Source: Azolla caroliniana (taxonomy: Eukaryota > Plantae > Polypodiophyta). From it: a stretch of 64,000 nt of DNA. Of this stretch, positions 15,140 to 64,000 are shown in pieces. A program made the translations under genes and the position numbers. The DNA lies in contig JBHGNT010000004.1 in the NCBI GenBank assembly GCA_043228905.1, positions 14,694,001-14,758,000 on the forward strand. The letters are read 5' to 3'. The first letter of the stretch is position 1. Each line of letters begins with the position of its first letter. Under the pieces are notes generated by a model. It had not been told where the DNA came from. It saw only the letters and a list, made by a program, of their open reading frames with translations, and did no database searches.

Positions 15140-15927
15140 CGTTTCCGAGCGAATTGCGACTGCTTAGTCCCTGACGCTCCAGGTTTGTTATGGTCCTTCT
15201 TCGAAGTGCATTGATAACGAAGAACTATTTCAATGGCTTCTTTGAAGGATTTTGGATCCTTATCGTGTACTATCTAGTGATAGTCCGAATTGGGGATGCC
15301 ATTGACAAAACAAGCTATTAACCAATTGTCCCCTTCTAGACCCGATTTTCGACTTTGGGTTTTAGCATGGTGAACATAGTCTTCTAGCGAGGAAAATTTC
15401 TAGCTAGAGAGGTTCATCAAAGTTTGTGCTGCCTCGGTTCGAGATGGAGGTTGCAGAAATTGACCCTTGAAAACTGTGACAAAGTCTATCCAGGTATTGT
15501 CATGAACAGTACTGAGACAGAGAAGGAATTAGTACTAAACGAAGGATTAGTACTATGAGAGGTGTGGAACTTCTTCGAGAGAAGGAAGAAGTGAGCAAGA
15601 CAGAGAGAAAGAGAGAGATTGAGAGAGAGAGAGAGAGTGATGATAAGAAAGATATGTATTATATGAAGAGAATATACAATGGTGGCTAAAAGGCTTAAGA
15701 CTGGCGTTGAACCAATTTGGTTCAACATAATGCCTAGTGCCCTCTTTTATAGTGTTTTCAGGAGTAATCTTGAAGCTTCTAGAATGTTCCAGAGAAATCT
15801 GGAATATACACTAATTTCCTATAATAAAATGTAAATGAAAATAATATCCTACGTATTACAATAGATGATCTAATGGTCAAGAGCTCGACCCATATAACCT
15901 AAGGTCATGAGTTCGAGTCTTGCCATA

Positions 15928-18900
15928 TCATGACACTATCCCCCCTTTAAAACGACGAGTGTCACGAGTCGTCTTGGATTGAGGACCTGGTTTGTGTGGA
16001 TATTGACGATGGAAGTCTTCAAGAAGAGCACGAGCATTGGTCACATTCTCGATCGGTTCCCAAGTACGTTCACTGGGGCTATAGCCTAGCCAATCGACTA
16101 GATAGTAGAGCTTGTTGCGAACAATCTTGGAATCAAGGATGGCGGCAACCTCGTACTCCGGCCCATCTTCAAGCTCGATCGGGGGTGGAGGTTGGATAAG
16201 ACGTCCTGGGATGGTGCTCTCGTGGTAGGGTTCGAGGAGAGAACTATGAAACACCGGATGTATCCGAAGTTTAGAAGGTAGATCGAGACGAAAAGCGACA
16301 TCATTAATTTGTCCAATAATACGGAAAGGACCTAATCGCCGATAATCTAACTTCTCACATGGACGAGTAGTCTTGATGTGTCGTCGTAGCAGCCACACCC
16401 GATCTCCAATATTAAAACTGGATGGAAGTCAATGACGATTTGCGTAGACCTTGTGTGTTTGTTGAGCTTGCTGGAGATGAGTAGATAAATCCGCTTGTAT
16501 CTTGCGTAACTGCTCCAAACGATCCTCCGCGCACGGATTTGTGGACACCTTTGGGGTTTCAAGTACACTCCATCGGGGGTGACATCCCGTATAAGCATAA
16601 AATGACGTAACTTTAGTGGATGTGTGGATAGAGTTGTTATAGGCAAATTCGGTGAAGTGGAGAATATTTGCCCAGTCATCTTGATGATAGCTGAGAAAGC
16701 ACCGTAGATACTGCTCCAACGTTTGATTTGTTCGTTCAGCTTGGCCGTCAGTTTGTGGGTGGTAGCCGGAGGAGAGGTTACAAGTGACCTTGAGCATGTT
16801 AAAAAGGTGCTTCCAGAATTTTGACACGAACTGGGGTCCACGGTCGCTGATGATACTATCAGGAAGTCTATGATGCCGACATACTTCACGCATGACAACT
16901 TCGGCAGTGTCTTCACTGGAGATCTCCTTAGTACATGGCAAGAAATGAGCCATCTTCGTATATCGATCGACCACCGTTAGAATCACATTGAACCCCTTAG
17001 AGACTGGAAGATCTGTGATGAAGTCTAGAGCAATGGATTACCACGGCTTGCTTGGAATTGGTAATGGTTCTAATAAACCATATGGATGATGCCTTGGCAT
17101 TTTCGCTCTGCAACATGTATCACAAGTCCGAACAAAATCCTCGACAAATTGTCGCATACAGGGCCACCAGAATGTTCGTTGTACTAAATGTAATGTTTTA
17201 GTACTACCAAAATGCCCAGCTGTATATGTGTCATGACAGTTTTGTACTACTCGAAGGCGGCAAGAACCATTAGGAACATACAAAAGTTCTTTAAAGAAGA
17301 GTAATCCATCATGGTATTTGAATTGCCGATAGTCCGTACCTGGTGGTTGCGACTATGAACACGACGCTCGAGAGGGACCAATTTGTGCTAGTATAGCTTG
17401 GGCGAACGCATCTGTCTTCAAGTCTTCACGTATGGTATCGATAACGCGGGAATCCATAGGCATGTCAAAGATTTGTGTTGCTTGTAGTCGTGCCGGTCCC
17501 AAGATGACTTGTTTTTGGTTATCGAAAGCTGGCTCGCCGGGACGGGGTGCTAGATACGAACGCCGTGATAATGCATCTGCCTTCCCTTGGTGCCTCCCCG
17601 GACGATATGTAATTTTGAAGTCGAAACGCGTGAGGAAGTGGGCCCACCGAGCTTGACGTCGATTCAACACACGAGCATCCTGAAAGTAGGCAAGATTCTT
17701 GTGGTCACTAAATACGGTGACTGGATGAGAGGATCCCTCCAGAAAATGCCTCCATTGCATAAAAGAATCCACTATTGCCAATAGCTCCTTATCATGAATT
17801 TCGTAGTTGATTTCGGCGGCGTCAAACTTGCGTGAGTGAAAAGCCACAGGATGTAGCTTCTCATCATTCCCCTGTTGTGATAGAATGCTCCCCAATGCAA
17901 AATCCGATGCGTCAGCTTCGATAATGAATGGTTTTTCCGGATCGACATGAGCTAGAATTGGAGCCGATGTAAATGCCTTTTTAAGACTCTCGAAAGCCAT
18001 GTCCATTTCTTCAGACCAGATGAACGGTTGTCCCTTCCTGGTAAGTTGTGTGAGAGGTAGAACGATCTTTGAGTAATCTTGTATGAACTTCCGGTAAAAA
18101 TTGGCAAAGCCTAAGAAGCATTGCACATCCCGCACCGAACGCGGAGTCTGCCATTCTACCACCATTTTGACCTTAGCTGGGTCCATGGAGATGCCTTCTG
18201 ACGAAATGATGTAGCCGAGAAATTCCACTTGGTTGCACCCGAAACTAAATTTTTCCGGCTTTGCATACAGACCATGTTCTCGAAGTCGTTTTAGTACTAA
18301 TAGTACATGAGAATCATGTTCTTCTTGGGTCTTTGAATAAACCAGTAGATCATCCAAATAGATGATCAAACAATCATCCAATAGATCTCGGAATATATCA
18401 TTAGCCATGTGCTGGAAGACTGCCGGCGCATTAGTGAGGCCGAACGGCATGACCGTATACTCGAAGTGCCCATATCTGGTACGAAACGCGGTCTTCCATT
18501 CGTCTCCTGGTCAGATCCGTACGAGGTTATATGCTCCCCGTAAGTCGATCTTTGTGAAGAAGCTGGCACCATTGATCCATTCTAAAAGACTTGAGATAAG
18601 GGGAAGAGCATACCTATTCCTGATTGTAACCTTATTCAAGCCACGGTAATCTACAATGAGACGAAGCGATCCATCTTTTTTTTTGACGAAGAAAATGGGC
18701 GCGCCGGTTGGAGATTTCGAATGCCGAATGAAACCATTTTCCAAATTCTCCTCTATATAGGCCCGAAGGACTTCCAGCTCGGTTGGTGACAAATTGTAGA
18801 TCGGTCCCCGTGGCGGCTCTTTTCCCGGTTGTAAATCGATGGGGCAATCGTACGGTCGATGATGAGGAAGTGTGTTGGCTTGTACTTTATCGAACACATC

Positions 18901-19520: not shown

Positions 19521-20669
19521 TAACTCTTCTTCTAACTGACTAAGGACATCAAATTTGTTTGCTAGATCTGGGATATTAGTACTATTAGTAGTATTAGGAC
19601 TATCAGATATCCCTACTGAAATAGGCTCAGATTTAGTACAATTAGAACTAGCGACTATTTGGTTTACCTGTCTTCTTGGCCTATGGGGGCAATTTATTGC
19701 GATATGTCCTGGTCCACCGCAGTAAAGACATAGTCGATTTGCACGGCGTCGCTGCTTTTCTTCTTCGGATAATGGCCCTCGACGACGTGTAGTGTCAATC
19801 TCTATCGGAGTCGGAGTATTCGCTGGAGGCGCATTATATGACTCCCTCGGAAAAGGTCTTGCTACCACTGAGGTGTAGGTGGGCTCTGATCTTGCCCTCG
19901 GCATCTGTAGCTGTCGTTCCGAACGTCGCTCAAAGAGGCGGTTGTCACATCTCACCGCGCGACTGATTGTTTTTGTTAAGGACTTTGGCTCTTCGGGGAA
20001 GGTCAATAGTAAATCCTTGACGTCGTTGCGTAAACCATAACGGAATTGCTCCATCAACGCTTGATCATCCCAAGGGATATCGGCGGCGAGTAGGCGAAAA
20101 TCTGCAGCGTATGCGGAGGTTGGACAGTCACCTTGGCGTAATCGCCGGATTTTGTTGATTGCGGTCCTGATGCTGTCAGTATCTCCGAAACATGCTTTAA
20201 ACTCACCTAGAAACTCTTCAAAATTGTTGAGTAACGGAGATTCCTTTTCTAATAGTGGAGCGAACCATGACAACACTGAGCCACTTAACAAAGTGCCTAC
20301 TAAACCCACTCGTGATGCATCGGTGGGATATTGGGAAGGATGCATTTGAATAACTAATCGTACCTGGTTAAGGAACCCTCTAAACTGCGATCACGTTCCA
20401 TCGAACTTCGTGGGAAGGCCAATCTTGGGTTCTTTATGAATCCCTTGTGTTCCGGGCCCTTGTTGTTGCATCGCTACGATGGTTGCTTCGAGTTGTTGCA
20501 CGCGTAACGCAAGTTCCCCATGTTGTTGCGTTTGCTGCTTTTCTAAGGAGATTTGCTGAAGATCCCCCAGCAACCGTTGGTTTTCTTGTTCCAAAGCATG
20601 GAACTTCTCCTTCAAGCATTGAAATTCCGAGAAAACAGATTGATATTCTTCAGCGCTAACAGTGGCCAT
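19512..20669 (-). pseudogene. Chromovirus gag (PEG10-like capsid plus CCHC knuckle), one premature stop
   Basis: ATG at 20669, TGA at 20393-20391, CLYCGGPGHIAINC. Confidence 0.9.
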
Positions 20670-21112
20670 GGGATGAAAGAAAAGAGGAATAAAAGATTAG
20701 TAGGAAATGAGAGAGACAGAAGGTAGACAAATTGGTTCAAACTGTCATGAACAGTACTGAGACAGAGAAGGAATTAGTACTAAACGAAGGATTAGTACTA
20801 TGAGAGGTGTGGAACTTCTTCGAGAGAAGGAAGAAGTGAGCGAGACAGAGAGAAAGAGAGAGATTGAGAGAGAGAGAGAGAGAGTGATGATAAGAAAGAT
20901 ATGTATTATATGAAGAGAATATACAATGGTGGCTAAAAGGCTTAAGACTGGCGTTGAACCAATTTGGTTCAACATAATGCCTAGTGCCCTCTTTTATAGT
21001 GTTTTCAGGAGTAATCTTGAAGCTTCTAGAATGTTCCAGAGAAATCTGGAATATACACTAATTTCCTATAATAAAATGTAAATGAAAATAATATCTTACG
21101 TATTACAATAGA

Positions 21113-21172
21113 TGATCTAATGGTCAAGAGCTCGACCCATATAACCTAAGGTCATGGGTTCGAGTCTTGCCA
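21113..21172 (+). other. tRNA-like A-box/B-box module in the chromovirus LTR U3 (second copy ~15866-15925)
   Basis: TGATCTAATGG ... GGTTCGAGTC, with 45 nt between the T8 and G53 equivalents. Confidence 0.6.
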
Positions 21173-22179
21173 TATCATGACAGGTATCAAGCAATTTCCC
21201 CGTAGTGCGGAGCCCACGCTACAAGGCGGCAACCTTACCCCTTAGTTCTCAACCAACACATGCAATCTTCGTACTATTTGGCTTGGGATAGAGGTCAAAA
21301 TGAGACTCCCATCGGCCCAGCTATGTGCAGATTGCTTCTTTCGTTCTTTCTTTTTTATCTCCCGTAAATGGCTTTACGACAAACGATTGTTCACCTTGAC
21401 GCTCATCGGGTCTATTAGTATCATGTTGTATACTAATGACATGTGCCTCAAAAGCACAATGAGATTGCCGAAGTTCGGAAATCTCATGCAAGGTAGAATT
21501 AAGGATATTTTGTATTTATAAAAAATACGACTCAATGGGGATTGGCCCAAGAGGATTTCCTTGAAAATTCCTTCCACTTGAGCAGATGACATCGGGTCGT
21601 TATTATGAGCCATTGAATAATAATTGTTGGCATAGAAATAAGATAAGGTCAGACAAATAGTCATAACATCATGTTGTGATGTAAACATATCATGGACAAA
21701 CATTAATCGATATCATGATCTCACATCAATGCCCCTCTAGATGTATGAGATGAGGTTCAAGATTAGGTGACTATGGTAACACAAAGGTGTTTTAAAAACC
21801 ACGGGGGTGACAAATGAATGTCTTTCCTTGATCTCTAGATCGATTTTTTCATGGCGGCTCCTCGAGGCTCAACCGTGTATGTTCGCTTCATGAATAGTTT
21901 ATACACGAAAAAATGTTAACAATAAACTATGTCTCTATGCCCACCCATGTGGTTTTGGGGTTTTAAGTCCTATTACGTTAGAACTAAAGTCTAAACATGT
22001 TTTATAGGCATATGTATCAACAAGGTTGTATGGTCTTAGTCATATTTGAACTTGAGACCTCGAGAACAAATACATTAAACACTTGAGCTAACCAAATGGT
22101 TTGGTCCTTTTGAATGTTTAATGTTTATGCGTATGAGAGATATGTGAAGGCATTTGCCAATATGTTTTTTAAATGAAAA

Positions 22180-29728: not shown

Positions 29729-32165
29729 TGTAACCGAAACTATAATACCATTATTGATTTATTATATTGTATTATTCAATAGTCAATATTAGTTAATGAT
29801 AAAGGTAATTGCATGTCATAATATATGCATGCAAAAGTGGTGTGCATGCAGAAAAGCATGTCTAACAAGTGGTGTTCATGTAAAAGTTCTTCACTAGTAT
29901 AAAAGAAGGCTATAGAGTTTTGAGTGTAGAAGAATCATATATGTAAGAACTCTTCCTCCCTATATTGTATACATATCTTTTCATTCTTATACTATGATAG
30001 ATTGAACCTTTCCTCTATATCTACATCATTTGTTAATGTCTATGTTTCTATCTCTATACATGTATGTTATTTGTTGATCTTGGAAGACTACTGCGTGTTT
30101 CCTTGTGCATGTAGAGTTCTCAAAACTCTAACAATTGGTATCAGAGCTTAGAAAAGCCTAGCTTATTTTGTGTAATATGGTTGGCATATCATCTCAAATT
30201 GAGAAGTTAGACAAGAATAATTATCATCCATGGATGTTTCGTATGAAGAACTACTTGATAGGCAAAAATCTATGGGGATATGTGTCAGGGGCAATTGTGA
30301 AGCCATCCTTACCAACCCGAGAAGCAACTGATGAGCAACGTGAAGTTTTTATGCAATGGAACGAGAAAGATAAGATGGTAATTTTTGTTTTGTCACAAAA
30401 TATTTCAAATTCAATGATTGGTCATATTCAATAGTTAGAAACTTCTGAGGAAGTTTGGAATTGTTTAGAAAGTTTATATACATCCTCTACAAAAGCACGA
30501 AAAATTCAACTAAAGAATGAGTTGAATAATATTAAAAAAACTCCCTCAATGTCTGTGAATGATTATGTCTTGAAAATCAAGGATTTGATAGATGCGTTAG
30601 GATCAATTGGAAGTCCCGTAGATAATGATGATAAAGTTGCATTCTGTTTAAATGGTTTAAGGGACGATGATAAATGGAAATCATTCATTACATTAGTATA
30701 TGTTAGAGATAGTATGCCTGATTTTGATCAGTTGGTTGCTCTAATGGTAATAGAGGAAATGAACTTGCAAGGTTCAACCTCTAGTTCAAATCAGTCTCAA
30801 GTGTTCTATGTAGGAAATAGAGGAAGAGGAAGATATAATCGAAGTCGTGGCAGATGAAGAAGATTTCGACCACAGTTTCAAGAACAAAGTCAACAAAATC
30901 AAAGTAAAGAGAATATAAGAGGCAGAAGAGGTGGAAGTACAAATACTCAAAGAGGTAGATATGGAGCTAGGAAAGGTACTGTCATGTGTTATGTGTGCGG
31001 AAAACAAGGTCATTATGCACATCAATGCTAGCATAGAAGTCAAGGTAACAATAATTATGCTTCTACAGCTAAAAGTCAAGACAATTCAGAAAATTTGCTT
31101 GTTATGAATCATGTGTCGAGTAATAACCATAAAAATATTGATCATAATTGGTATATAGACAATGGATGTAGTAACCATGTCATATAATAAGGAAGTGTTT
31201 GAGAATTTGCATGCTCCAAATGTGTTTGGTTATGTACAAACTGAGGATGATACTAGGCATAGTGTTGAATTGGTTGGGCAAATATCATTACAAGCTGCGT
31301 GTGGTACTACAAATCAGTTGATTGATGTGTTGCATGTACCCACGATCACAAAGAATTTGATTTCTATAGGACAAATGGTGGAGAAAGGATTACAAGTAAA
31401 ATTTAATTATAAAGGTTGTTTTATAGAAGATCTTAAGAAAGGATATAAGGTGATTGCTAAACGAAAAAAGAGGGAAGGATGTTTACTATGGATATTATGA
31501 AAGATGATAGAACATACTTTGCACTTGGAAATGAAAAGATTGTTAATTGATTTTTGGCATAAGAGGATTGGTCATGTGAATTTACAAAAGTGAAAAAGTA
31601 TGTAGTTGAATGAATTAGTGTTTGGTTTGCCTCATTTTAAGAATAAAGAGATGCATTATGTATGTGAAGCTTGTCAATTTGGAAAACAAGCTAGGTTGCC
31701 GTTTAAGAAAGAAAGATTCACGAGCTCTCATGTGTTACAACAAATACATACTGATGTTTGGGGTCCGTCAAAATAAGTATCACATGGAGGAAGCAAGTAT
31801 TATGTGACCTTTATTGATGATTATTCAAGAAAGGTTTGGGTGTACTTTATGAAAAATAAGTAAGATGTTTTTTATTATTTTAAGATATTTAAGAATCAAG
31901 TAGAAAATGAAGCAAATGCTAAGATAAAAATATTAAGGTCACATGGAGGGGGAGAATATTTTTCTCATGAATTTTCAAAATTTTTATATGATTGTGGAAT
32001 AAAAATATAATATACATGTAGATACACACCTCAACAAAATGGCGTTGCTGAGAGAAAGAATAGGACCATTCTTGAAGTTGCAAGGTCAATGCTTAATGAA
32101 AAGTGTATGCCTCATTCATTTTGGGCTGATGTTGTTCATACTGCGGTGTACTTGATCAATAGATA
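29729..32165 (+). mobile_element. AT-rich degenerate Copia 5' half (LTR to 30133, PBS, gag, PR, INT)
   Basis: PBS TGGTATCAGAGC at 30136-30147. EKLDKNNYHPWMFRMKNYL, HTDVWGP and PQQNGVAERKNRT. The LTR start is uncertain. Confidence 0.88.
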
Positions 32166-42444: not shown

Positions 42445-42920
42445 TGTTAGGATCTCGGTCCCTCCGGATGGGATACGAAGGCAACGGAAGACCCGGTGAG
42501 AACCAGATGACGAGGCCCGGCATCGGAAGACCCAATGAGAATCTAATGTGGAGTACCCGGCAACGGAAGACCCGGTGAGAACCGGATGACGAATACCCGG
42601 CAACGGAAGACCGGGTGAGAATCAGATGTGGAGTACCCAGAACCGGATGACGAGTACCTAGCAAGGAAGACCCGGTGAGAACCGGATGACGAGTACCCGG
42701 CAAGGAAGACCCAGTGAGAACCGGATGTTGCAGGCCCGGTGAGAACCTCTCACCGGATGAAGGGACATATATGTATATATGTTTCTGAGAGCCCATTGGG
42801 GCTATATCTATAAATAGTCCTAATGTCATATTAGTATAAATGTGACCTAGGGCAAACAATGTGATATTATTATAGTTGCTATTATTATCTTTATATAGGA
42901 TCATTGGTGTAACGACTGTA

Positions 42921-42968
<48 letters not shown>

Positions 42969-43421
42969 TACAGAGCATGTCTCTGTTGTAACCGCCACCA
43001 GGCAAAGATTGTGAGCAAGAGGTCGTTGCCTCTGTGCTCCTTGTTGTACTCCCTGACATAGTGATAGCTTGGAGTTTGTGGACTCCCGTGGTTTTTCCCT
43101 CTCAGGGTTTTCCACACTAACATCCTGTGTATTCTCTTTCTGTTTGTGTCCTTACCTACATTCCCATTTCTTCTGTGTTTGATTGTCATCAAGTGATCTA
43201 CACTTCAGTTGTGGCCGGAGATTATTCCGCATATTTCTCATCAAATTGGTATCAGAGCAAAACGACACAGAAAAATGGACAATTCGTTGGGAGGAATGTT
43301 CAAGCTCACCGGCTCCAACTACTCAGTGTGGAAGTTGAAGATGAGGGAAAAGTCGGGGAAAAGTCGGGGACACGGTCAAAGTCAAGGGGGAGGCCTACTT
43401 GTTTCTATTGCGGCAAGCCGG
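42445..43421 (+). mobile_element. Tork-like 5' LTR (42445-43243), PBS and internally deleted gag
   Basis: TGTTAG...TCA, ~40-bp U3 subrepeats 42481-42745, (GA)n 42924-42965, PBS at 43247, MDNSLGGMFKLTG. Confidence 0.9.
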
Positions 43422-43603
43422 TGTCGTGAAGTACGAAAGCTTCACATTAAAAGTCTACAATAAGATAAATACGTAACTAAAATAACATTTAATAATGTTT
43501 TATATATATAGATAATATTAACAACACATATGATAATATTATATATATGTAAAGAAAAATAATATATATACATATAGATAAATATATTATATTACACGAA
43601 CAA

Positions 43604-43661
43604 AAGAGGACTTGAACCAATAACCCCACCCTATGACTCTCAAATCTTACCATTTATTCTA
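43604..43661 (-). other. tRNA-like module 1 in the Gypsy LTR U3
   Basis: TAGAATAAATGG A-box, D-stem GAAT/ATTT, T-CAT-A at the anticodon position, GGTTCAAGTCC B-box, 44-nt spacing. Confidence 0.6.
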
Positions 43662-43737
43662 TACTTGTAATATACATAAAATAAAGCATTTGCTTCATGA
43701 TATAAAAATAAAGTTGTATGTTGTATTCAATAGCATC

Positions 43738-43794
43738 TTGAGAATGAAACCCACAACCTCATACACCAAAGTCAACACACCTACCATTAGGCTA
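43738..43794 (-). other. tRNA-like module 2 in the Gypsy LTR U3
   Basis: TAGCCTAATGG A-box, D-stem GCCT/AGGT, CT-TTG loop, degenerate B-box GGTTTCATTC, 44-nt spacing. Confidence 0.55.
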
Positions 43795-44558
43795 GGCCCT
43801 TTCTCTTTAAAATTATATTTTCATGTTTATTGTTATTGCATATATTGTTTCATACATAAAAGCTCAAATGAGCGAGATGTTTATCATGCATCACATGCAT
43901 TTCATGCACTACATGCATGACTTGTACCCTCCAATGCATCATATGCATGGGGGCACCTATTTAAATGGTGAAAGAGAAGATCAAAAAGAGATATGGATGA
44001 GATATCAATCAAATTATGTATTACATAAGAGATACCACAAAAATAGATAAAGAAGGGAAGAAGTTTAACATAAAGGTGGAGCTTTAGCTTGGCGGTCGTG
44101 GTGGTCAACTCTCAACAAGAGGGAGGCGGTTTGAGCCTTATCTTCATCAAAATATTGAAGTGAAGATTGTAGTGGTCTATGTTCAAGAAAGAGAAGAGCG
44201 ATTACCTTGCAAGACAAAGTTCGGAGGTTCAACGACGTGTACAATCATTTTGTAACTCTTTCATGAAAATGATTATAAATTTCATACACTTTCTCATATA
44301 TTATTTTATATCTTATCTTGTCTTATCTTATATTCCTTAAAAATCCTATTTTGTCATATCTTATTGATCTCTATTCACTCCATCTCTACTCTTTCGTCTC
44401 TTCCGTCCATAATCCCAGTGATTCCTTCCTCACTTTCACGTTATCCTTTGTGTGCGCAATGCTACACTTCGAGGCGAGCCACGTCACGGCACAACTTGGT
44501 GAACCCGATGTGAAACGGGGAAGTAGAAGAGACATCTAAAGTAAAGATCAACATCAAC

Positions 44559-46733
44559 ATGGAAAGTACGAGTACAATGGATCTGGTAATGTTGTTTATT
44601 GAAAAGTTGAATCAAGATCGATTATTTCATGCCTTACGAGAAGTCCGAGAGAAGATTGGTATGTTTGAAGGTACAAATATTTCAAAGTATGTCAATATAT
44701 ATTATGATGAAATGGAAATGTTTGGTGTGAATGATGTCAATATGATAGCAAACTTTTATAAACTAGTGGAAATGGAATTAAGAGATAGAATTCGTGAAAT
44801 ACAAGCATTGCATAGTTTGGATTGGAATGCATTCAAAGAAGCGCTTGTGACTGAATATTCTCGTGAAGATTTCTCTCGAGTTACTATGCGTTCATTTCAT
44901 GAATGGATCTTAAAAGAAGATAAAGGGTTGTCTGTGGCTGACATAAAAAAAGAGTTTGATAGGATGTATGGACACTTAAAGCCAGAAGAAAGAAATTCTT
45001 TGTCTTGGCAAAAGGTTGCTTTATTTTTGCAGGTAGTTGACAAGAGATATAGAAAAGAATTGGAATTTATGCTTGAAGTGCCAAATACTGAGGATGGTAT
45101 AACGGCCGATTGGAATGAGGTAACAAATGCTTGTAATAAATTTATGAAAAGAATGCAACGGAATGGTGTAATGCTACAAATACTACATATGGGAATCATG
45201 AATTGGCTTGATCAAAACATCGAAGTTCAAAGACATGATCGAGAACCATCACACGAAATGGTCCATCAACCACGCGAAATGATTGAAACTAAGAGTGAGT
45301 CTTTGCTTGATGATTTAGTTCAAAGTATGAAAGATCTAACAATTAAAGTGGCAAAGCTTGAGAATGGTCATACTTCGAGGTCAAGGGAACCATTTCGACC
45401 TCGATGCATGTGGTGTGATAGTCTCGAACATCAATTACGTGATTGTGCGGAATATAAAGACATGGAAAATCGAGACTTGGTGTATTGGAAAAATGGTAAC
45501 ATTTATTTAATTGAAACTAGAAGTCCACTTACAAAGAACTTTGGTGATGGTGGTGTTAAGGTTAAATTTGAAGAAGCTGAAGCAAAGAAGGCTTCCACAA
45601 TGTATTACTCGGCAATGGCAGGAATGCGCCTCGATGACATGCCATCTCGATCATCATTCTGGGAGAAGGTTGTAAGTACCGCACAAAAGCAAAAGATGAA
45701 GATGGAAGACCTTCGTGTTGCCGGAGATTCTGTGAGGAAAAACACTGGATGGGATGTTCTAGTAGATGTTATGACAGTCTATGCTCAAATGGCAGAACAC
45801 CAAGAGCATGAGGTGATAGTGGAAGAAAAAAGGAAAAGATCGGATGATGAGATTGGCTCAACCAAAAAGCATGAAACAAGAGAAAGCAAAAGAAAAGAGA
45901 TGGACACAAAAGTTGAAAAAGGTAAATCTGGTCCTTCATTCAAATTAATGTCTGATATTGAAAAGGATACAGATTTAAAGAAAGTTTTAGAAACAAGAAT
46001 ACTAGACAGTCGAGTAGAATTTACACTAAGAGAAGTGTTAGGTATTGCAAAAAAGGAATTTCATGATGAAATAATTGATATTGTGCGAAGAAAGAAGCAA
46101 GTAAATGAGCAGGTTAAAGAGACAAATCCGAAGGTGGCATATGCAGTGGTGAGCAACGAGTCAAACAATATCGTTGTTGACTCTCAACATGCATCAACCT
46201 CAATGATAAATTCAACAGATGTAAGAAGCCATTACTCTGGCAAATGTTGGGCAAGAGCCACTACTGAGCATCATGTGAAGATTGGAAATGTTCCAGACCC
46301 CGTGATGGCACTTATTGATCATGGTTCTGAAATAAATATAATGAGTGCTGATTTTTACAGGAAAGGTAGATGGCCAATTGATACTCAACATGGTTGGCGA
46401 GTAAAAGCTGCCACATCAGTCACGGAAGATTTATTTGGTGCATGCCCAAATGTAAAGGTTATTATTGGTGATATAGAGGTAGATCAACATTTCTTTGTGC
46501 AGGAAGGATCTACCTATCCAATAATCTTGGGGCAACCATACATTACAGCGGTACGGATGGAGACCAAAGTCCTCGACAATGGTTCTGCCTATGCGAAAAT
46601 CCGTAGCCAAGATGGACGACGAGCTGTACAATTTATGACAGTTCGCCCAAATCATGAGAGGAACAAGCAAGAGCTTCGTGATCATTCAATACCAAAAGAT
46701 TGTGATGATTTTGATAATCAGGTTTTTGACTAG
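44559..46733 (+). CDS. Gypsy gag-protease ORF (724 aa)
   Basis: Uninterrupted ORF with CMWCDSLEHQLRDC knuckle, ALIDHGSEINIM protease site and ILGQPY. Confidence 0.92.
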   Translation: MESTSTMDLVMLFIEKLNQDRLFHALREVREKIGMFEGTNISKYVNIYYDEMEMFGVNDVNMIANFYKLVEMELRDRIREIQALHSLDWNAFKEALVTEYSREDFSRVTMRSFHEWILKEDKGLSVADIKKEFDRMYGHLKPEERNSLSWQKVALFLQVVDKRYRKELEFMLEVPNTEDGITADWNEVTNACNKFMKRMQRNGVMLQILHMGIMNWLDQNIEVQRHDREPSHEMVHQPREMIETKSESLLDDLVQSMKDLTIKVAKLENGHTSRSREPFRPRCMWCDSLEHQLRDCAEYKDMENRDLVYWKNGNIYLIETRSPLTKNFGDGGVKVKFEEAEAKKASTMYYSAMAGMRLDDMPSRSSFWEKVVSTAQKQKMKMEDLRVAGDSVRKNTGWDVLVDVMTVYAQMAEHQEHEVIVEEKRKRSDDEIGSTKKHETRESKRKEMDTKVEKGKSGPSFKLMSDIEKDTDLKKVLETRILDSRVEFTLREVLGIAKKEFHDEIIDIVRRKKQVNEQVKETNPKVAYAVVSNESNNIVVDSQHASTSMINSTDVRSHYSGKCWARATTEHHVKIGNVPDPVMALIDHGSEINIMSADFYRKGRWPIDTQHGWRVKAATSVTEDLFGACPNVKVIIGDIEVDQHFFVQEGSTYPIILGQPYITAVRMETKVLDNGSAYAKIRSQDGRRAVQFMTVRPNHERNKQELRDHSIPKDCDDFDNQVFD

Positions 46734-49700
46734 GACTGTTGCGAGTGAGGGTTGCAATAGTTCCATTATTAAAAGACCCTCATATAGGGCATTACAACAT
46801 ATGAATAAGTCATTTCATGTTTCTGAAAGTGGTGCTATATGTGTGACTAGGATGTATGAATGCAAGAGGAACTTGAAAAAGAATGCTAATCTGTTTCAAT
46901 AGGCATTGAAGGATAATGGAGTACTTGAAATGGAAGAGCAGATTGAAAGTGTTATGGAAGAAATTTCTTTTGCAAATACTTTAGAAGAGTTAGAAATGTA
47001 TTTGAAAGAAGATGATGAGAATGTTAGAAAGATACATGTAAACTCAATTGATATGTATTATGAGATTGATAGGTATAATTGTAAATATGAAGAAGTAGAA
47101 AGTTTATGTAATACAAAATACAAAACAATAGATAAAAAGGTCAAACCTGCTGCAGTACCATTACCTATTGGTAGTGAAGAGAAGATGGAGGCAGCAGCAA
47201 CCGAGCCTATGCTTCGACCAATAGAGAAGATCGGACATCACTTCACTTTGGAGACAATAAATAACTTGAGAATCGGAAGGGGTGAATTTCTTCTGCAATC
47301 AGAGATCGCGACTTTCAAAGAAATGATCTTTAGGCATGGGAAAGCGTTCACATTCAAAGCTAAGGAGATTGGTTGTGTAAATCCAAAGGTGGTGATGCCA
47401 ATGGTAATATTTACTATCCCTCATATTCCTTGGAATTTTAAACCTATTGCAGTACCGAGAGCTCGATTACCTCAATTGTTGGAGTTAGTGAAGGATAAAG
47501 TCAAGATGAAGATTTTAGAGCCTTCAAATGCACCATACTCCAATAGATGGTTCACAGTTCCAAAGAAAGATGGTTCTCTAAGATTCATTCAAGATCTACA
47601 ACCAGTCAACAAAGTTACAATCCGAAATGCGGGAATCGGACCGATCGTTGATGAATTTGCGGAAGCGTTTGCTGGAAGAGTGATTTACTCTATGGGAGAC
47701 CTATATTCAGGATACGACCAATTTCAACTAGCAATTGATAGTCACAATATCACAACAATGAAAACACCAATTGGGTTGGTTCGAATGTGCACTCTACCTC
47801 AAGGTGCGACGAATTCGGTTGCTCATATGATGAATGCAATGAACAAAGTTCTACATGAATACATCCCAAAGGTAACTATGCCATTTTTAGATGATATTCC
47901 TATTAAGGGATGCTTAGAAAGAGAGAAAGATGAGACTATGGTTGGAAATGGTTGTAGAAAGTTTGTGATGGATCACATTAATGACTGTAAAAGTATTTTA
48001 AATAAGCTTGAGCAGGTACATTTGACACTATCAGGAACAAAGTCTTGCTTTGGGCAAAACGAAGTTCTAATAGTTGGTCATATGTGTGGGTGGTATGGGA
48101 GGAAGCCTTCACCGATCAAAATTAACGCAATACAAAATATGAAGGAAGTTTGCGATTCGGTAACAGAGGTGAGAAGATTTTTGGGTGCATGTGTGTTTTA
48201 TCATATTTGGTTACCACACTTTGCACATGTCTCAGATCCTCTCTACCAACTTTTAAGAAAAGGAAAGAAGTTTATTTGGACTGATGAACATACGCAAGTT
48301 GTTCAACAGCTGAAAGAAGCATTACTGAAAGCACCAGTTCTTCGTCAACCAGACTACAAAGGTGAAAGACCAATTATAGTAACAGTTGATACTAGCCCAA
48401 TCAGAATCGGTTGGGTTATCAACCAAGAAGATGAAGACCAACATCGATATGCTATTAGATTTGGAGCAAAGATATTAAATGAAAGACAAAGAAACTATGC
48501 ACAAGTTAAACGAGAATTGTGGGGTTTGCTTACTGCATTAAAAACAGATAGAGATTACTTGATTGGAGCAGATGTAGTGGTTGAAACAGATTGTTTGCCA
48601 CTCATTGGAATGATAGCAAGTTGCACGACACCAGATATTGCAATGCTTCGATGGATTGTATACATCAGAACCATGAACCCAGAATTGCGGCATATAAAGG
48701 GAAAAGACAACCCAGTTGCAGATATGCTGTCAAGGGCAAGGTTCATAAATGAAAAGGTGATGCAAACTGAATATAAGAAGTGGGCAACTACAAGCCATCA
48801 ATTTGCTCATCAAGAATCTATTATGCGTCATGATGAGTTTAATGTAAGTATAATGTTCAAAGACACAGAGTATGAAGGTCAATGGTTAGAAATAGGAAAT
48901 TTTCTAAAGACTCAAGAAGCCAACCCATCATGGTCGAAGAAACAATTAAATGAATTTCGAAGACGAGCATTCAAGTATTTTTTACATGAAGGGCATTTAT
49001 GGAGGCGTCCAAAAAGGCCAACCGAAAATCCTCTTCGAGTCATTTGTAAGGATGACATTAAGAGAAAATTAATTAATGAATTCCATGATAGTTTGTGGGC
49101 AGGACATAGAGGCATATGGGCGACATTTATGAAGTTGAAAGAAAAGTATTGGTGGCCACATATGTATAAAGATGTAACGAAATTTGTGGAAACCTGTGAG
49201 GTTTGCCAAAGGTATTCAACTATCCAGTATCGAGATGAGCTAAAACCAACATATTCATCATCAATGCATTATAAATGGATGGTTGATCTAGTGACAATGC
49301 CACTTGGGGAAGGTCAAATGCGATATTTAGTACTAGCAAGAGAAGACCTTACAAACCAAGTAGAAGGAAGACCACTACGACAAAAAACAACTAGAGCTGT
49401 ATGTAAATTTTTGTTAGAAGATGTAATATGTTGTTATGGGTGTGTTGGTAAAATAATTGCAGATAGAGGAGAACTTGACTCTGATGAAGCTAGAGAATTC
49501 TTGAGCCGAATAGGGGTCAAATTATCACTTACAACTGCGTATAATCCAGAAGCCAATGGAAAGATTGAAAGAGGACATAGCCCAATAGTTAAGGCGATTG
49601 TGAATAGCTATAAAGGTAAAATAAGAGATTGGCCATACATGCTACCTTATGCACTATGGGCGGATCGAACAACTCATAGTTCAGTAACAGGATACATGCC

Positions 49701-50184
49701 AACTGAATTTATACTTGGCCAAAACCCCATCATGCCGATAGAAGAATCAATTATGTCATGGATATCTATTCCATGGAGAGAAGAGGTGAGCAGAGAAGAA
49801 TTGCTTGCTTTGCGAATTCAACAATTAGAGCGTCGACCTAAAGATATAGAAATAGCAGCCCAACGATTGAAGGAGGCTCGACTAAAGAATAAAATTCGTT
49901 TTGATAAAACTCATAGAATTCGACATAAGAAAATAGAAGAAGGAGATTGGGTGCTCGTGTATGATAGCAGTTTAGATAATCAACATAGCACCGTCCGCAA
50001 GTTCGCTGAAAGATGGTTTGGGCCTTATATAGTAAGAAAAGTATATGATAACTTTACTTATAAGCTTAGTGAATTGGATGGGACACTAATCCTAAACGTG
50101 GTAGCTGGAAAGAGGATAAAAGTATTTAAGAAAAGGTTTGAGCTTGAACCTCCTCCAATAGATCAACATGAAGATGAAAGATAG
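46734..50184 (+). CDS. Gypsy pol (RT, RNase H, integrase), one in-frame stop at 46900-46902
   Basis: 1092-aa ORF with LPQGATN, FLDD, VDTS, H-H-C-C zinc finger, YNPEANGKIERGH and WFGPY. Confidence 0.93.
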
Positions 50185-50583
50185 TGGCACATGCCGGAGG
50201 ATGTGCAGGTCTAGAGGGGGTGGATGTCGTGAAGTACGAAAGCCTCACATTAAAAATCTACAATAAGATAAATACGTAACTAAAATAACATTTGATAATG
50301 TTTTATATATAAAGATAATATTAACAACACATATGATAATATTAGATATATATGTAAAGAAAAATAATATATATATACACTTTCTCATATATTATTTTAT
50401 ATCTTATCTTGTCTTATCTTAAATTCCTTAAAAATCCTATTTTTTTCATATCTTATTGATCTCTATTCACTCCATCTCTACTCTTTCGTCTCTTCCGTCC
50501 ATAATCCTAGTGATTCCTTCCTCACTTTCACGTTATCCTTTGTGTGCGCAACGCTACGCTTCTAGGCGAGCCACGTCACGACA

Positions 50584-53500
50584 CCGTGTTTGGGTTTTGC
50601 ACGTAAACATCCTGTGTACTCTTCTCTCCATTGTGTTGTGCATTCTTTCCCCGTTTTTTGTGTTTGATTCTAAGCTAAGTTGTGGCCGAGCGTTGTTTAT
50701 CGGGAGCGTGTAGTTCCTGTCAAAGTGGTATCAGAGCGAAACGACACAGAAAAATGGATGAATCGTTGGGAGGCATGTTCAAGCTCACCGGCTCCAACTA
50801 TTCCGTGTGGAAGTCGAAGATGAGGGACATGCTTGTGGTTAAAGATCTTTGGTTGCCGGTTCAGTTCGGGGACAAGAGATCGGACAAAATCGACGTCACG
50901 ATATGGGAGGTGATGCACATGAAGACAACGGCTTACATACGGTGCTTCATCGACATGAGTCTATACAACAACTTCAATGAAGAGAGCAAGGCTCATGAGG
51001 TCTAGGAGAAGATTGACATTATGTTTCAAAACAAAAATGATGTTAATCAGGTTTCGGTATTTTGGAAGCTAGTAAGACTCCGGTACCAAGATGGCTCCAG
51101 CATGGCGGAGCACATGAATGCCTTCTAGGGGCTGATCCACCAGGCAACAACATTGGAAGTACCTCTCGCCGATGAGGTACTAGCGCTACTCCTGCTTGGT
51201 TCCCTCCCAGATAGCTAGGAAACGTTGGTTGTCACTTTGGGCAACACCGGGCCGGAAGGGAAACGGTTATCCCTAGCAAGAATGAAGTCAAGCTTGCTAG
51301 ATGAGGAGGCGTGTCAGAAAGATAAGGATACGAGTTCCAACTCCAAAGCTCTCCTTACCGAATCGGAACGCGGAAGACAAAGGAACCGTAGCCCCCAGAA
51401 CCGGGAAAAGTCGGGGACACGGCCAAAGTCAAGGGGGAGGCCTACTTGCTTCTATTGCGGCAAGCCGGGACACTTCCAAAAGAACTGTCGGCACCTCCGA
51501 AAAGACAAGGAAACCGACGGTACCGATTCGAAGCGGACACCGGACCGGAACGGTAATGATTGGAGGGGGCCAGACCGGAAGGGAACGGCGGCTATCGCGG
51601 CAAGTGAAGAAGAGTTGATGCTCATCACTGAGGAGAGTGAGCTAAACCTTGCCGGCGACGAGATGACCTGGGTGGTCGACTCCGGAGCGTCGTTCCACCT
51701 TACCCCGGACCGGAAATGCTTCTCATCCTACTCAACCGGTGATCACGGCTGTGTCCGGATGGGGAATGAAGGTACATGCCGAATTGTCGGCATAGGAGAC
51801 GTGTGATTGACAACACCAACCGGATGCAAGCTGCTGCTGAAGGATGTCCGACACGTTTCGGAGGTTCGTCTGAACCTGATATCAGTCGGTCGGCTAGATG
51901 ATGAAGGCTACCTGGGTAGCATCCGGAACGGTGTTATGAAGTTCAGCAAAGGAAGCCTGATTGTGGCTCGGGCCCGGAAGGTAAACACGTTGTACCTGAT
52001 GAATGCCCGATTATGCCTGGAGGAACTAAACGTGGCATCCAACACTGCCGGTGAGATGTGGCACAAGAGGCTGTGTCACATGAGCGAGAAGGGGATGAAG
52101 AGGCTTTGTTGAGCGACAAGCTCAACCGGAGCTGGATCGGCTGAATAAGCCTGAGCCGGTAAGTAGTAAGGACCAGTAAGCAAGAGGAGCCGATATGCCG
52201 GATCCAATCCGTAACCGGAAGCCTAGTATAGGTTAGACTACTAGGCACTTATAGTCTCATAGTTAGTGTCAGATGCTTGTGTGAGCATTGAAGTACACCG
52301 TACTTCTAACAGTCCTGTGTGGACTTGTATAAATAGCGCTGATGAGCGCGTTGTAGATACAGAGCACAGAGGTTTCATATAATTTTGAAAATAGTGTGTT
52401 TTGCTGTCTCTGTCTCTCCCTCGTACTCTCTCTCTCTCTCTCTGTGTATTGTTCTTTCTAACACTTTTGCAAGCAATCTTTCACATGGTATCAGAGCGCG
52501 TGGGTTGAGAACCTCTGATGTAGACATCTACGCTTGTGAAGGAAACCCTAACAGATCGGAAAACAGACACAAAAGGAGAAATGGACAGAGGTATGGCTAC
52601 GTCGCTCCCGGTGGAGAAGCTCGACAGAACCAACTACGCAACTTGGTCATACAAGATGCACCAGTACTTGCTTGGGCATGACTACTGGAGTTATGTCGAC
52701 GGAGTGAACGACTCAGCACCGGAGACGACACACAAGGACTTCCCAGTGTGGGAACAGGCGGCAAGCAGGGTGATGTACTGCTTTACGTCCAGTGTCGGAG
52801 ACTAGTTGCTCAGCCATATCCGTGACGCCAAGACACCGAAGGATGCTTGGGGAAACCTAAAAAAGGTTTTCGCCGCAAGCACCACTGCCCGGAAGCTGCA
52901 AATCAGACAGGAGTTGAGCAATGTTCGACAGAAGAACATGTCTGTGGGAGATTACACAGACCGGATCAAAGGGATCTGTGACTCGCTTGCCTTTATTAAC
53001 ATCACCGTAGAGGAAGAAGAGATGGTGCAGGTCTGTCTTGGAGGCTTGGCGTCCAAGTTCGGAGCTTTCCGGACTACGGTTTGTACAAGGGAGAATACGC
53101 CCTCATTTTTCGACTTACAGTCGATGCTCCTTGTAGAGGAGAACCACGCCGGTGCATTTACTAGTGCACCCCCAGACAACCGGATGCTGTACATGGGAGT
53201 GGATCGGTCCCGCGGGTGTGGTGGACGAGGCAGGTCGGCACGCAATGGAGGCGGCCGGCAGGAGCAGGAACGAAGGCACAGTGAGCGTGCCAACAGCAGT
53301 TCCGGGACTCAAGGTGGTGCCGGAGGCCGGCAAGAAAAATCCGCTACGGAATGCTGGTACTGTGGCAAAAAGGGCCACAGGGAAAGCGAGTGCTGGAGAA
53401 AGCGTGCTGATTCGGACAAATCCGGATCCGGCAAGACCGGTAAGGAAGGCCGGCAAAGCTCGCACTACGCATACGGATCGGGAGGATCAAAGAACGGTAA

Positions 53501-61989: not shown

Positions 61990-64000
61990 TGTCGTGCCTT
62001 TCGGCTCCAGATCGTTGCATGAGTCGGGTGGGAACCACTTGGGTTTTGGACTAGGAGGAAAGAAAATTCTAAGGCAATTAAGAATGTGAAATATATTGTA
62101 AGAAAGAAAGATATGAAAATTTCGTGAATCCCACGAGTATAGTGTATTAGTGAGTACTCAAATTAAGAGAGAAAAAATAGTTAGCAAATTCGTGGATCCC
62201 ACGATTATATTAATCAACCCTTGTAAAATAATCAACAACCCCTATACATCTTTCTCTCTTCCTTATATAGTGTTGGAAGAGTCTAAGTTTATCACATGCC
62301 AGCATAATGCTTTTCCTACTTTTAGTTTCATGCACACTGCATGTGCATGATTAGCTTCCTATCTCGTCTTTTCTTTTAACTCGAGTGTCTATGCATGAAT
62401 AACTTTTTGTACCATGCATGTCTAGAAATTTTACATGGGATAAAGTTTACTATAACTTTAAAATTCATAATACGCTAGTACAATGATAAGGCTTAACATT
62501 ATTAACATGGAGGTGCAAGGTTCGAATCTTGCCGTATGCATGTAATATATAATTTTATACTTTCTTCTATTTACAAATATGTCTCTTCATCTAGTGAGAG
62601 ACTCTCACAGACCTTCTTCATCCGGCTCTTGCCGGTTTTGCTTTATCCGGTTCTCGCCGGTTTTCTTTATCCGGTTCTTACCAGATCCTCCTTACCGGTC
62701 CTCTTCGTCCGTTTGTCACCGACTCTCACCGGCCTTCTTCATCCAGCTCTTGCCGGTTCTGCTTCATCCAGTTCTCGCCGGTTTTCTTTATTCGGTCCTT
62801 ACTGGATCCTTCTTACCGGTCCTCACCGGTTCTTCCTTCCGGTTCTCACTGGGTACTACATATCCTATCCGGAGAAACCAAAAATGTAATTTTTCACGTA
62901 GTGTGCGAATTACACTACAACACTCGCCCCCTCCGAACCTGCAGATCCTCCGGTATGTGCCGAAGTCCCCGATGCTTGCTATTCACCTTCATCCGAAGCT
63001 TCCTCCAATTCTCCCCTTAAGTCGACTATGAGTTGTAATCCACTTTCCTCGCTTTCCGCATCACCGCGATCTTCGTCCGATTGCTCCTTCTTGTCGGTCT
63101 TGTCTAGGATCACATAGGGTTCTTCTTCAGTCCGCTTCTTGAAAATCTTGACCCGTTTCCCGGCTATAGGCACTCGTAGCGTCGTTCCATCTAACTTGCA
63201 TAGTTGGTAAGTTCCGTTATCAAAAACTTTCCGAACCTCATATGGACCGAACCACCTTTTCGCGAACTTCCGCATCATTGTATGTTGATGATCCAAACTA
63301 CTATCGTAGACAATCACCCAATCTCCTTCTTCAATCTTCCGCAGTCGTAGTCAGTGCTTTGTGTCGAACCGGCTTTTATTCCGGAATAGCGCTTCTTGTT
63401 GTCGGCGTATTGCTTCCGCTATGTCTTCCGGTCTTCCCTCCAGTTGTCGTATCCGGACCGCTAGTAGTTCTTTCCGGCTCATCTCTTCCTTGCATGGTAG
63501 CATTGTCCATGCCGCGATTGCGGTTTCCGTCGGCATTACCGATGCTTGTCCGGTCATAAGTTCTGCCGGCATGTAACCGGTTATGGAGCTATGCGTTGTC
63601 CGATCCGCCCATAATGCATACGGAAGCCTCTGCGGCCAATCCTTCACCCTTCCATCGCACACCTTCACAAGTGCTTTTACAGTCGGACTATGTCCTCGTT
63701 CGATCTTCCCGTTGGCTTCCGGATTGTATGCCGTTGTCAGTGTTAACCGAACTCCATGTTTAGTGAAGAATTCCTTAGCTTTATCAGATTCGAGTTCTCC
63801 CCGATCCGCAATCACTTGTCCTACGCACCTGTACCTGCAAAACACTTCTTCCAAAAGGAATTGGCATACCGTAGAACACGTTTTCCTCTGTAGCGCTCGA
63901 CCTTCTACATGGTTTGTGAGATCTTCCCGAGCTAACACGAAGTACTTCTTTTGTCCGATCCCGGTTGGCATGGCTACAATGTCGACCATCCATTTGAAGT
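61990..64000 (-). mobile_element. 3' end of a Gypsy element: integrase, PPT, 3' LTR 61990-62922
   Basis: ADRGEL, YNPEANGKIERGH and WFGPY. PPT GGAGGGGGCGAG abuts TGTTGTAGTG. Confidence 0.93.
62469..62538 (+). other. tRNA-like module in the Gypsy LTR U3
   Basis: TAGTACAATG A-box-like, GGTTCGAATC B-box, GCAAG/CTTGC stem, ATACG/CGTAT acceptor-like stem, 44-nt spacing. Confidence 0.6.

What the first reader, a model, noticed from the sequence alone, without database searches (positions are those of the whole stretch)
43604..43794. Two tandem antisense tRNA-like (Pol III A/B-box) modules in a Gypsy LTR U3, a pattern repeated in three LTR families
Seen: the minus strand reads TAGAATAAATGGTAAG..TCATA..GGTTCAAGTCC (43661-43608) and TAGCCTAATGGTAGGT..CTTTG..GGGTTTCATTC (43794-43742). 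Both have 4-bp D-stems and 44 nt between the T8 and G53 equivalents (canonical tRNA spacing is about 45). Equivalent modules lie in two other, dissimilar Gypsy LTRs (21113-21172 and 62469-62538). All four are antisense to their element and upstream of the LTR TATA box. Known: Cassandra TRIMs carry 5S-derived Pol III promoters in their LTRs, and TFIIIC-bound B-boxes act as heterochromatin barriers in yeasts. Inference: these Gypsy LTRs may carry pseudo-tRNA modules as a TFIIIC insulator or anti-silencing device, or as outward-facing Pol III promoters. I do not know of a description of this, but I cannot exclude one.
Basis: partly seen in the sequence, partly recalled or inferred. Interest (0 to 1): 0.8.

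Follow-up and report, generated by a model that had tools for sequence, protein, structure and literature searches.

The report
tRNA promoter boxes in Gypsy LTRs
Several families of full-size, protein-coding jumping genes in a non-seed land plant carry in their end repeats the promoter boxes of a tRNA gene at exact tRNA spacing but without the tRNA fold, which likely lets them recruit the host's tRNA-gene factor TFIIIC next to their own promoter, a step not yet tested.

Summary
The modules are real and tRNA-derived, but not always antisense. A generic tRNA-box score ranks them high in the window without beating shuffles. Relatives settle it: in 81 loci of related Gypsy elements, hits of 18 bits or more number 19 in 56 kb of LTR against 2 in 358 kb elsewhere, and the unscored tRNA variable-loop motif AGGT sits in place in 21 of 36 LTR hits against 2 of 60 others. 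A model built only from outside copies returns the four named modules plus one sister-LTR copy as its top five window hits (E 3e-8 to 1.5e-4). Boxes and 44-45 nt spacing are kept; cloverleaf stems are not. They are family-wide, with no SINE tail or duplication. Of 37 modules 24 are antisense and 13 sense; a decayed sense copy at 44085 was missed. Only 13 of 37 longer LTRs carry one. Likely TFIIIC sites; binding and function untested. Closest known: Helenus TRIMs. This scan noted a similar LTR-borne tRNA promoter in gut-fungus genomes.

The parts
43422..44493 (+). 5' LTR of element A (Phygy-like Gypsy), TG...CA, 1072 bp
43608..43661 (-). Module A1: A box from 43661, B box 43618-43608, spacing 44, antisense, 296 nt upstream of the TATA-like motif
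   Evidence: Rfam tRNA 13.5 bits, cut-off 29; E 1.5e-5
43741..43794 (-). Module A2: A box from 43794, AGGT variable-loop motif, decayed B box 43751-43741, spacing 44, antisense, 163 nt upstream of the TATA-like motif
   Evidence: (E 3.2e-8); family copies mostly read other letters at 43744, 43737, 43734
43957..43965 (+). TATA-like motif of LTR A (motif match only)
44085..44138 (+).
   Evidence: 15.3 bits, 24.7, alignment; only 5 bits (E 2.5) with model R1
44497..44514 (+). Primer-binding site, tRNA-Trp type (tRNA identity recalled)
44514..50184 (+). gag-like and pol frames of element A (RT, RNase H, integrase; no chromodomain hit)
50225..50583 (+). 3' LTR of element A, lacking about 715 bp (43571-44285 equivalent) with all three modules and the TATA-like motif; short shared sequence at the junction
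20743..21182 (-). 5' LTR of element B (Tcn1-like chromovirus, self-priming, 5-bp duplication GGTAT)
21113..21167 (+). Module B, spacing 45, antisense, at the very start of U3, 114 nt upstream of the TATA-like motif
   Evidence: 31.2 bits with no Tcn1 sequence in training; E 6.9e-5
15498..15935 (-). 3' LTR of element B, 98.9% identical to the 5' LTR
15866..15920 (+). Second copy of module B in the 3' LTR
   Evidence: E 1.5e-4
61990..62922 (-). 3' LTR of element C (Phygy-like)
62476..62529 (+). Module C, spacing 44, antisense, about 206 nt upstream of the TATA-like motif
   Evidence: (E 1.2e-7)

Best explanation
The LTRs of many autonomous Phygy-like and Tcn1-like Gypsy elements carry tRNA-derived A box, variable-loop and B box motifs at tRNA spacing, kept as DNA sequence while the tRNA stems have decayed, and these likely act as binding sites for TFIIIC that would keep the LTR's own Pol II promoter open or shielded from neighbouring silent chromatin. 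Shown: the motifs, their tRNA origin, LTR enrichment, family-wide presence, loss of pairing, both orientations. Inferred: that selection keeps them (from boxes surviving as the only alignable U3 islands between families). Untested: TFIIIC binding, any effect on chromatin or on element transcription. The genomic RNA itself would still be made by Pol II.
For: LTR enrichment 19 hits in 56 kb against 2 in 358 kb at 18 bits, one of the 2 being in an LTR as well. Unscored AGGT in 21 of 36 LTR hits, 2 of 60 other hits, 0 of 109 hits in shuffled LTRs. With spacing left free (25-75), the best A box lies at 44-45 for 20 of 35 B-box hits scored with real-tRNA matrices. Between 17 unrelated module clusters identity is 0.78 at AGGT, 0.70 at the B box, 0.51 at the A box and 0.28-0.34 in spacer and flanks. 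No pairing above shuffles and no consensus fold. The module is the only alignable U3 stretch in pairs such as L021/L027, L007/L027, L035/L027, L035/L044. In family B, public contigs of four runs show variants at 36 positions of 20950-21146 and at most one in 21147-21182, which holds AGGT, the B box and the LTR end. Either orientation occurs and the TATA-nearest antisense module lies 114-242 nt upstream, mostly 155-206. Two lineages with different priming carry it. TFIIIC/TFIIIB limit silent-chromatin spread in yeast (PMC9540200, passages).
Against: No binding, expression or methylation data. Patchy: 13 of 37 longer 3' LTR stretches carry a module (12 without L061), sisters often have a wholly different U3 without one, so it is dispensable for many lineages. 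Two window LTR copies have lost it by deletion (50225-50583; 14611-15142). A- and B-box conservation between clusters is partly built in by the search, and the 33 modules were hand-picked. The 5' half of the A box varies within family B (7 of 7 positions 21113-21119 listed). Rigid 44-45 spacing is tighter than TFIIIC is recalled to need. A few modules lie outside LTRs (L022, L037, L046). Loci are metagenome contigs that may merge copies. tDNA or TFIIIC barrier function was not reported for plants in the passages read (PMC9540200).
Confidence: 0.5

Rival explanations
1. The modules are working Pol III promoters that make short RNAs (antisense over U3 in most families, sense in others), and the transcripts or the act of transcription regulate the element.
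For: Both boxes at exact tRNA spacing; a run of four T within 40 nt after the B box in 21 of 34 modules against 160 of 485 background U3 windows; Cassandra is transcribed this way (PMC10886601).
Against: The T runs are no more than local composition gives (shuffle mean 18.4, p 0.19); no fixed upstream TATA and a CAA in 6 of 35, though such signals are weak in non-flowering plants (PMC13578239 section 20); A-box 5' half variable; the downstream sense modules have no near T run.
Confidence: 0.22
2. They are passengers: heads of tRNA-derived SINEs or tRNA pseudogenes that fell into AT-rich U3 regions and are copied along with the elements without benefit.
For: Patchy distribution and both orientations; similar modules occur in non-LTR plant DNA at low density (window 22090); Kojima proposes SINE insertion as the origin of Helenus (PMC10886601); SINE heads would already have lost their stems.
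Against: No shared body or tail (identity at background past the B box); no flanking 8-nt direct repeat for 4 of 5 window modules, only an AT-rich one for A1; family-wide in four runs each; none in 9 of 9 stretches upstream of tRNA-iMet primer sites, mostly Copia LTRs (best 14.9 bits); boxes outlast spacers between families.
Confidence: 0.15
3. The modules are landing pads or decoys for retrotransposons that integrate upstream of Pol III genes, as Ty3 does.
For: Earlier notes of this scan describe that for chromovirus LTRs in gut-fungus genomes (e1-10420520, e1-10420559; unchecked AI notes).
Against: No nested insertion sits upstream of any of the six window modules. It gives no clear benefit to the carrier.
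Confidence: 0.05
4. The antisense tRNA-like stretch pairs, in the element's RNA, with the primer tRNA and helps strand transfer, as reported for a tRNA-Lys3-like sequence in HIV-1 U3-R.
For: 24 of 37 modules are antisense in U3; precedent cited in PMC6468702 (passage and reference title read).
Against: Modules match the primer end implied by the PBS at only 4-7 of 14 positions; element B is self-priming yet has one; sense modules could not pair; only tRNA-generic promoter positions are kept.
Confidence: 0.05
5. Chance motifs in AT-rich LTR DNA.
For: Window-only scores are within the shuffle range; ARAGORN finds 0 genes and Rfam gives no hit over its cut-off.
Confidence: 0.01

Closest known systems
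Helenus / TRIMp3 (Kojima 2024, PMC10886601; parts 1-5 of 6 of the text and supplement passages read)
   Same: tRNA-derived sequence inside LTRs, conservation centred on boxes A and B, not a working tRNA; one plant family in Selaginella.
   Different: Helenus are non-coding TRIMs of 311-1263 bp whose sense tRNA promoter is thought to make the genomic RNA (Helenus-1_SMo reads sense). Here the carriers are 5.7-7 kb gag-pol elements with TATA-like motifs, most modules are antisense in U3, and up to three occur per LTR. Kojima notes that 'not a few LTRs' in Repbase resemble part of a tRNA but analysed only TRIMs under 1000 bp, and argues autonomous elements must use Pol II.
Cassandra TRIM (as described in PMC10886601; PMC7215508 seen in a search listing only)
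   Same: Pol III internal promoter in a plant LTR.
   Different: 5S-derived, sense, non-autonomous, shown to be transcribed; no 5S match here.
tDNA and extra-TFIIIC barrier sites of yeasts (PMC9540200 passages; Noma 2006 and Simms 2008 seen as reference titles only)
   Same: B-box sites proposed to act through TFIIIC binding on DNA.
   Different: Those are host loci with measured binding; here they ride on retrotransposons, keep A box and tRNA spacing, and binding is unmeasured.
tRNA-derived SINE heads (general knowledge)
   Same: A and B boxes without a cloverleaf.
   Different: No body, tail or target duplication found; fixed parts of LTR families.
tRNA-Lys3-like sequence in HIV-1 U3-R (via PMC6468702 passage and reference title)
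   Same: tRNA-like sequence in U3 of an autonomous LTR element.
   Different: That one matches the element's own primer and acts by RNA pairing; these modules do not match the primer and occur in a self-priming lineage.

Membership tests
Helenus (TRIMp3) | tRNA-derived A/B-box sequence in the LTR | tested here: met
Helenus (TRIMp3) | short non-coding TRIM | tested here: not met
   gag-pol frames of 739 and 1093 aa in A; gag, RT, integrase and chromodomain in B
Helenus (TRIMp3) | sense promoter able to make the genomic RNA | tested here: not met
   24 of 37 modules antisense; transcription itself not measured
Cassandra | 5S rRNA-derived sequence in the LTR | tested here: not met
   no 5S hit in Rfam scans
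tRNA gene | cloverleaf with paired stems, above ARAGORN or Rfam cut-off | tested here: not met
   0 genes; best 13.5 bits against 29; pairing at shuffle level
tRNA-derived SINE insertion | shared body or tail downstream of the head | tested here: not met
   identity 0.28-0.30 past the B box between clusters
tRNA-derived SINE insertion | own target-site duplication, copy-specific | tested here: not met
   family-wide cover; both LTRs of B carry it
TFIIIC barrier site | B-box consensus | tested here: met
   G53, T55, C61 invariant, A58 97%, C56 88% in 33 modules (partly by selection of hits)
TFIIIC barrier site | TFIIIC occupancy and barrier activity | not testable with these tools
   needs ChIP and reporter assays
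Pol III transcription unit | upstream AT/CAA signals and T-run terminator | tested here: inconclusive
Phygy (Neumann 2019, PMC6317226) | non-chromovirus Gypsy with tRNA-Trp primer site | tested here: met
   no chromodomain hit; PBS at 44497 (tRNA-Trp identity recalled); Phygy 81% Trp
Phygy (Neumann 2019, PMC6317226) | 4-bp NCGN target duplication | tested here: inconclusive
   flanks CCGG and CCGT fit NCGN but differ
Phygy (Neumann 2019, PMC6317226) | placement in the REXdb protein tree | not tested
   no REXdb sequences at hand
Tcn1 chromovirus (Neumann 2019) | chromodomain and self-priming instead of a tRNA primer site | tested here: met
   Chromo PF00385; sequence after the 5' LTR is complementary to a stretch just downstream of the TATA-like motif
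Tcn1 chromovirus (Neumann 2019) | placement in the REXdb protein tree | not tested
   nearest named relatives are fish, amphibian and fungal elements

The most novel reading that the evidence does not exclude
Autonomous Gypsy retrotransposons of non-seed plants have repeatedly captured tRNA-gene promoters and use them as portable TFIIIC insulators, placed about one nucleosome upstream of their Pol II TATA box, to resist silencing inside retrotransposon nests; tens of thousands of such sites would then shape the host's chromatin and compete with real tRNA genes for TFIIIC.
Probability: 0.3. Interest if true: 0.85.

Novelty: new variant of a known kind. Interest (0 to 1): 0.6.

Why it matters
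tRNA- or 5S-derived promoters in LTRs are described for tiny non-coding elements that need Pol III to copy themselves. Full-size elements have no such need, so keeping the boxes, in either orientation and in two unrelated lineages, points to another use. If it is TFIIIC binding, it gives a mobile, high-copy test case for the open question whether tRNA-type sites act as chromatin barriers in plants, with natural plus and minus variants among sister LTRs. It also warns that standard tRNA and SINE finders miss these sites altogether.

Tried and rejected
No whole genome is held for the window, so no genome-wide orientation, copy or insertion-site count. ARAGORN at default finds 0 genes; lowered thresholds give 40-238 unselective calls. 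Rfam over the window and over 10 module-bearing loci gives no tRNA hit; local scans give one sub-threshold hit for A1 and none for A2, B or C. The window-only box score is not significant. The first pair count had the D stem one column off and was redone. No RNA holder listed among public runs, so nothing on expression. No Phygy relative in viral contigs; 10 distant Gypsy loci from there have no module. No Tcn1 loci could be fetched, so family B rests on the two window LTRs and laid contigs. Cluster look-up gave no organism names; host lineage stays moss-or-fern-like. The tree is the quick version; the careful search did not finish. Terminator and upstream-signal tests were inconclusive. Rejected: chance, real tRNA genes, copy-specific SINEs, strict antisense rule, primer pairing.

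Full report
Setting. The window is a nest of LTR retrotransposons. Named relatives of the main pol protein are from a liverwort (Riccia, 55-70% identity) and a fern (Adiantum, 70% over 76% of the query); the closest (96%) are unnamed metagenome proteins. The host is a non-seed land plant; moss or fern is not settled. Element A (43422-50583, plus) is a non-chromodomain Gypsy with a tRNA-Trp-type primer site, Phygy-like by the features in PMC6317226 (passages and one supplement row read). Element C (3' LTR 61990-62922, minus) falls in the same lineage, about 67% alike in integrase DNA. Element B (15498-21182, minus) has a chromodomain, 98.9% identical LTRs, a 5-bp duplication and a self-priming site, so it is Tcn1-like.

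Observation. The quoted strings and spacings are correct. Standard tools do not call them: ARAGORN 0 genes; Rfam gives A1 13.5 bits against a cut-off of 29 and nothing for A2, B or C. I built A- and B-box matrices from 34 distinct real bacterial tRNAs. In the window the four named modules rank 1, 2, 5 and 17, but 7 hits of 14 bits or more compare with a shuffle mean of 3.8 and maximum of 9, and a look-alike lies in a Copia gag frame at 30736. The window alone therefore does not prove the claim.

Relatives do. Eighty metagenome loci and one MAG contig encoding related integrases were fetched. With the same matrices, hits of 18 bits or more number 19 in 56,464 bases of LTR stretches and 2 in the remaining 357,657; the best scores 31.8, in the range of real tRNAs. 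One of the 2 outside hits (L011) is in an LTR beyond my cut. Per LTR stretch, 15 of 65 beat shuffles on the antisense strand and 21 of 65 on the sense strand at p 0.05 or less. Three checks are free of the scoring. First, the tRNA variable-loop motif AGGT (positions 44-47), never scored, is in place in 21 of all 36 LTR hits of 12 bits or more, in 2 of 60 hits outside and in 0 of 109 hits in shuffled LTRs. Second, with spacing free from 25 to 75, the best A box falls at 44-45 for 20 of 35 B-box hits. Third, a sequence-only Infernal model from 22 modules outside the window returns A2, C, A1, B and the second B copy as its top five of 22 window hits, E 3.2e-8 to 1.5e-4, the next being 0.07; relatives of A and C were in training, of B none. 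A second-round matrix gives six window hits of 24.7 bits or more, all in Gypsy LTRs, against none at 22 bits in 40 shuffles.

Family feature. Public contigs of four runs cover the A modules at summed depths like the rest of the LTR, and family B at very high summed depth in four runs of four organism labels; no listed piece spans a whole LTR and depth is not a copy number. In B, 36 positions of 20950-21146 show variants of 10% or more and at most one in 21147-21182, which holds AGGT, the B box and the integrase end; the first seven A-box positions vary, AATGGT does not. No flanking 8-nt direct repeat was found for 4 of 5 window modules, and only an AT-rich one for A1; identity between module clusters falls to background past the B box. 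These are not copy-specific SINEs.

What is kept. Among 17 clusters from 33 hand-picked modules (5 from the window, 28 from loci; exact duplicates and one-box or off-spacing hits dropped, three added from below or outside the cut), identity is 0.78 at AGGT, 0.70 at the B box, 0.51 at the A box, 0.34 in the spacer and 0.28-0.33 in flanks. Cloverleaf pairing in 22 aligned modules is 49.2% against 49.1% in shuffles, and no consensus fold is predicted (same result on 33 modules). In several pairs of families the module is the only alignable part of U3. So promoter positions and spacing persist and RNA structure does not.

Orientation is mixed: 24 antisense and 13 sense among 37 distinct modules of 20 bits or more (the L061 case lies in an inverted piece of another LTR). 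Sense modules occur upstream of the TATA-like motif (L005, L006, L011, L036, L007) and about 129 nt downstream (L001, L002). LTR A itself has the downstream one at 44085, collinear with L001 and L002, scoring 15.3 and 24.7 bits on the two matrices but only 5 bits on the Infernal model. The trait is patchy: 13 of 37 longer 3' LTR stretches have it, scattered over a quick tree of 83 integrase rows; sisters without it share only the first 30-80 bases of U3. LTR A's U3 259-542 resembles L009, L019 and L032 (75%) rather than its 94%-identical protein relatives L001 and L002, yet both versions hold two antisense modules at similar places. None of 9 stretches upstream of tRNA-iMet primer sites, mostly Copia LTRs, reaches 15 bits. 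A few modules occur in non-LTR flanks.

Mechanism. A Pol III promoter cannot plausibly make a 5-7 kb genomic RNA (Kojima argues the same, PMC10886601), and antisense modules point out of the element. Keeping boxes without stems, in either orientation, with the TATA-nearest antisense module 114-242 nt upstream of the TATA-like motif (motif calls only) fits a DNA-bound factor. TFIIIC reads these boxes (PMC13578239 section 20) and limits silent chromatin in yeast (PMC9540200 passages). I put a TFIIIC site that helps keep the LTR promoter open at 0.5; working Pol III promoters for short RNAs at 0.22 (T runs after 21 of 34 modules, not above local composition); passenger SINE-head relics at 0.15; landing pad and primer pairing at 0.05 each. 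Every functional step is inference; nothing here measures binding, transcription or chromatin.

Known work. Closest is Helenus (PMC10886601): tRNA-like LTRs in non-coding TRIMs, one in Selaginella; these elements fail that family's size and coding criteria but resemble it in what is conserved. That paper remarks that many Repbase LTRs resemble part of a tRNA, without analysing the long ones. Ten full-text searches found no description of such modules in autonomous plant Gypsy LTRs; the library lacks most subscription papers and Repbase reports, so this is not proof of absence. Earlier notes of this scan report LTR-borne tRNA promoters in gut-fungus chromoviruses; the look-ups by sequence, by words and within this genome (first 8 rows shown of 45 and of 20) showed no note on this feature.

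Verdict. Real, tRNA-derived, conserved at the DNA level, present in two Gypsy lineages, orientation-mixed and dispensable. New variant of a known kind; interest 0.6.

Noticed in passing
window 22044-22090, minus: Weak tRNA-like relic outside any LTR (spacing 39, 13.4 bits; E 0.11), 89 bp from the start of the Copia LTR at 22179.
   Followed up: partly
window 14611-15142, plus: LTR remnant of the element-C family that lacks the U3 stretch holding the module; homology to L027 starts at LTR position 329.
   Followed up: partly
window 43418-43421 and 50584-50587: Element A's flanks differ (CCGG, CCGT) and lie in different parts of one Copia family, so A may be a recombinant of two insertions.
   Followed up: partly
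window 43680-43965: U3 of LTR A resembles LTRs of distant Phygy-like families (L009, L019, L032) more than those of its nearest protein relatives: U3 swapping between families.
   Followed up: partly
window 30736-30782, plus: Chance A/B-box look-alike inside a Copia gag reading frame; useful negative control.
   Followed up: yes
window 42480-42780, 60561-60730 and 62568-62824: A similar roughly 40-bp tandem repeat (GAACCGG-rich) occurs in Copia LTRs and in the U3 of Gypsy element C (68-75% alike).
   Followed up: no
window 43870-43950 and L001, L002 LTR positions 449-517: TGCATG-rich palindromic stretch just upstream of the TATA-like motif, at high cover in public contigs.
   Followed up: no
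L002:3289-3390: Tandem duplication of the 3' half of a module (AGGT plus B box) within one LTR.
   Followed up: no
L019:4776-4833 against L019:11088-11730: The two LTRs of one contig have different U3 regions, one with and one without the module; real recombinant or assembly merge.
   Followed up: no
L081 (G001): A plant Phygy-like retrotransposon contig sits in a cyanobacterial MAG, probably plant DNA carried into the bin.
   Followed up: no
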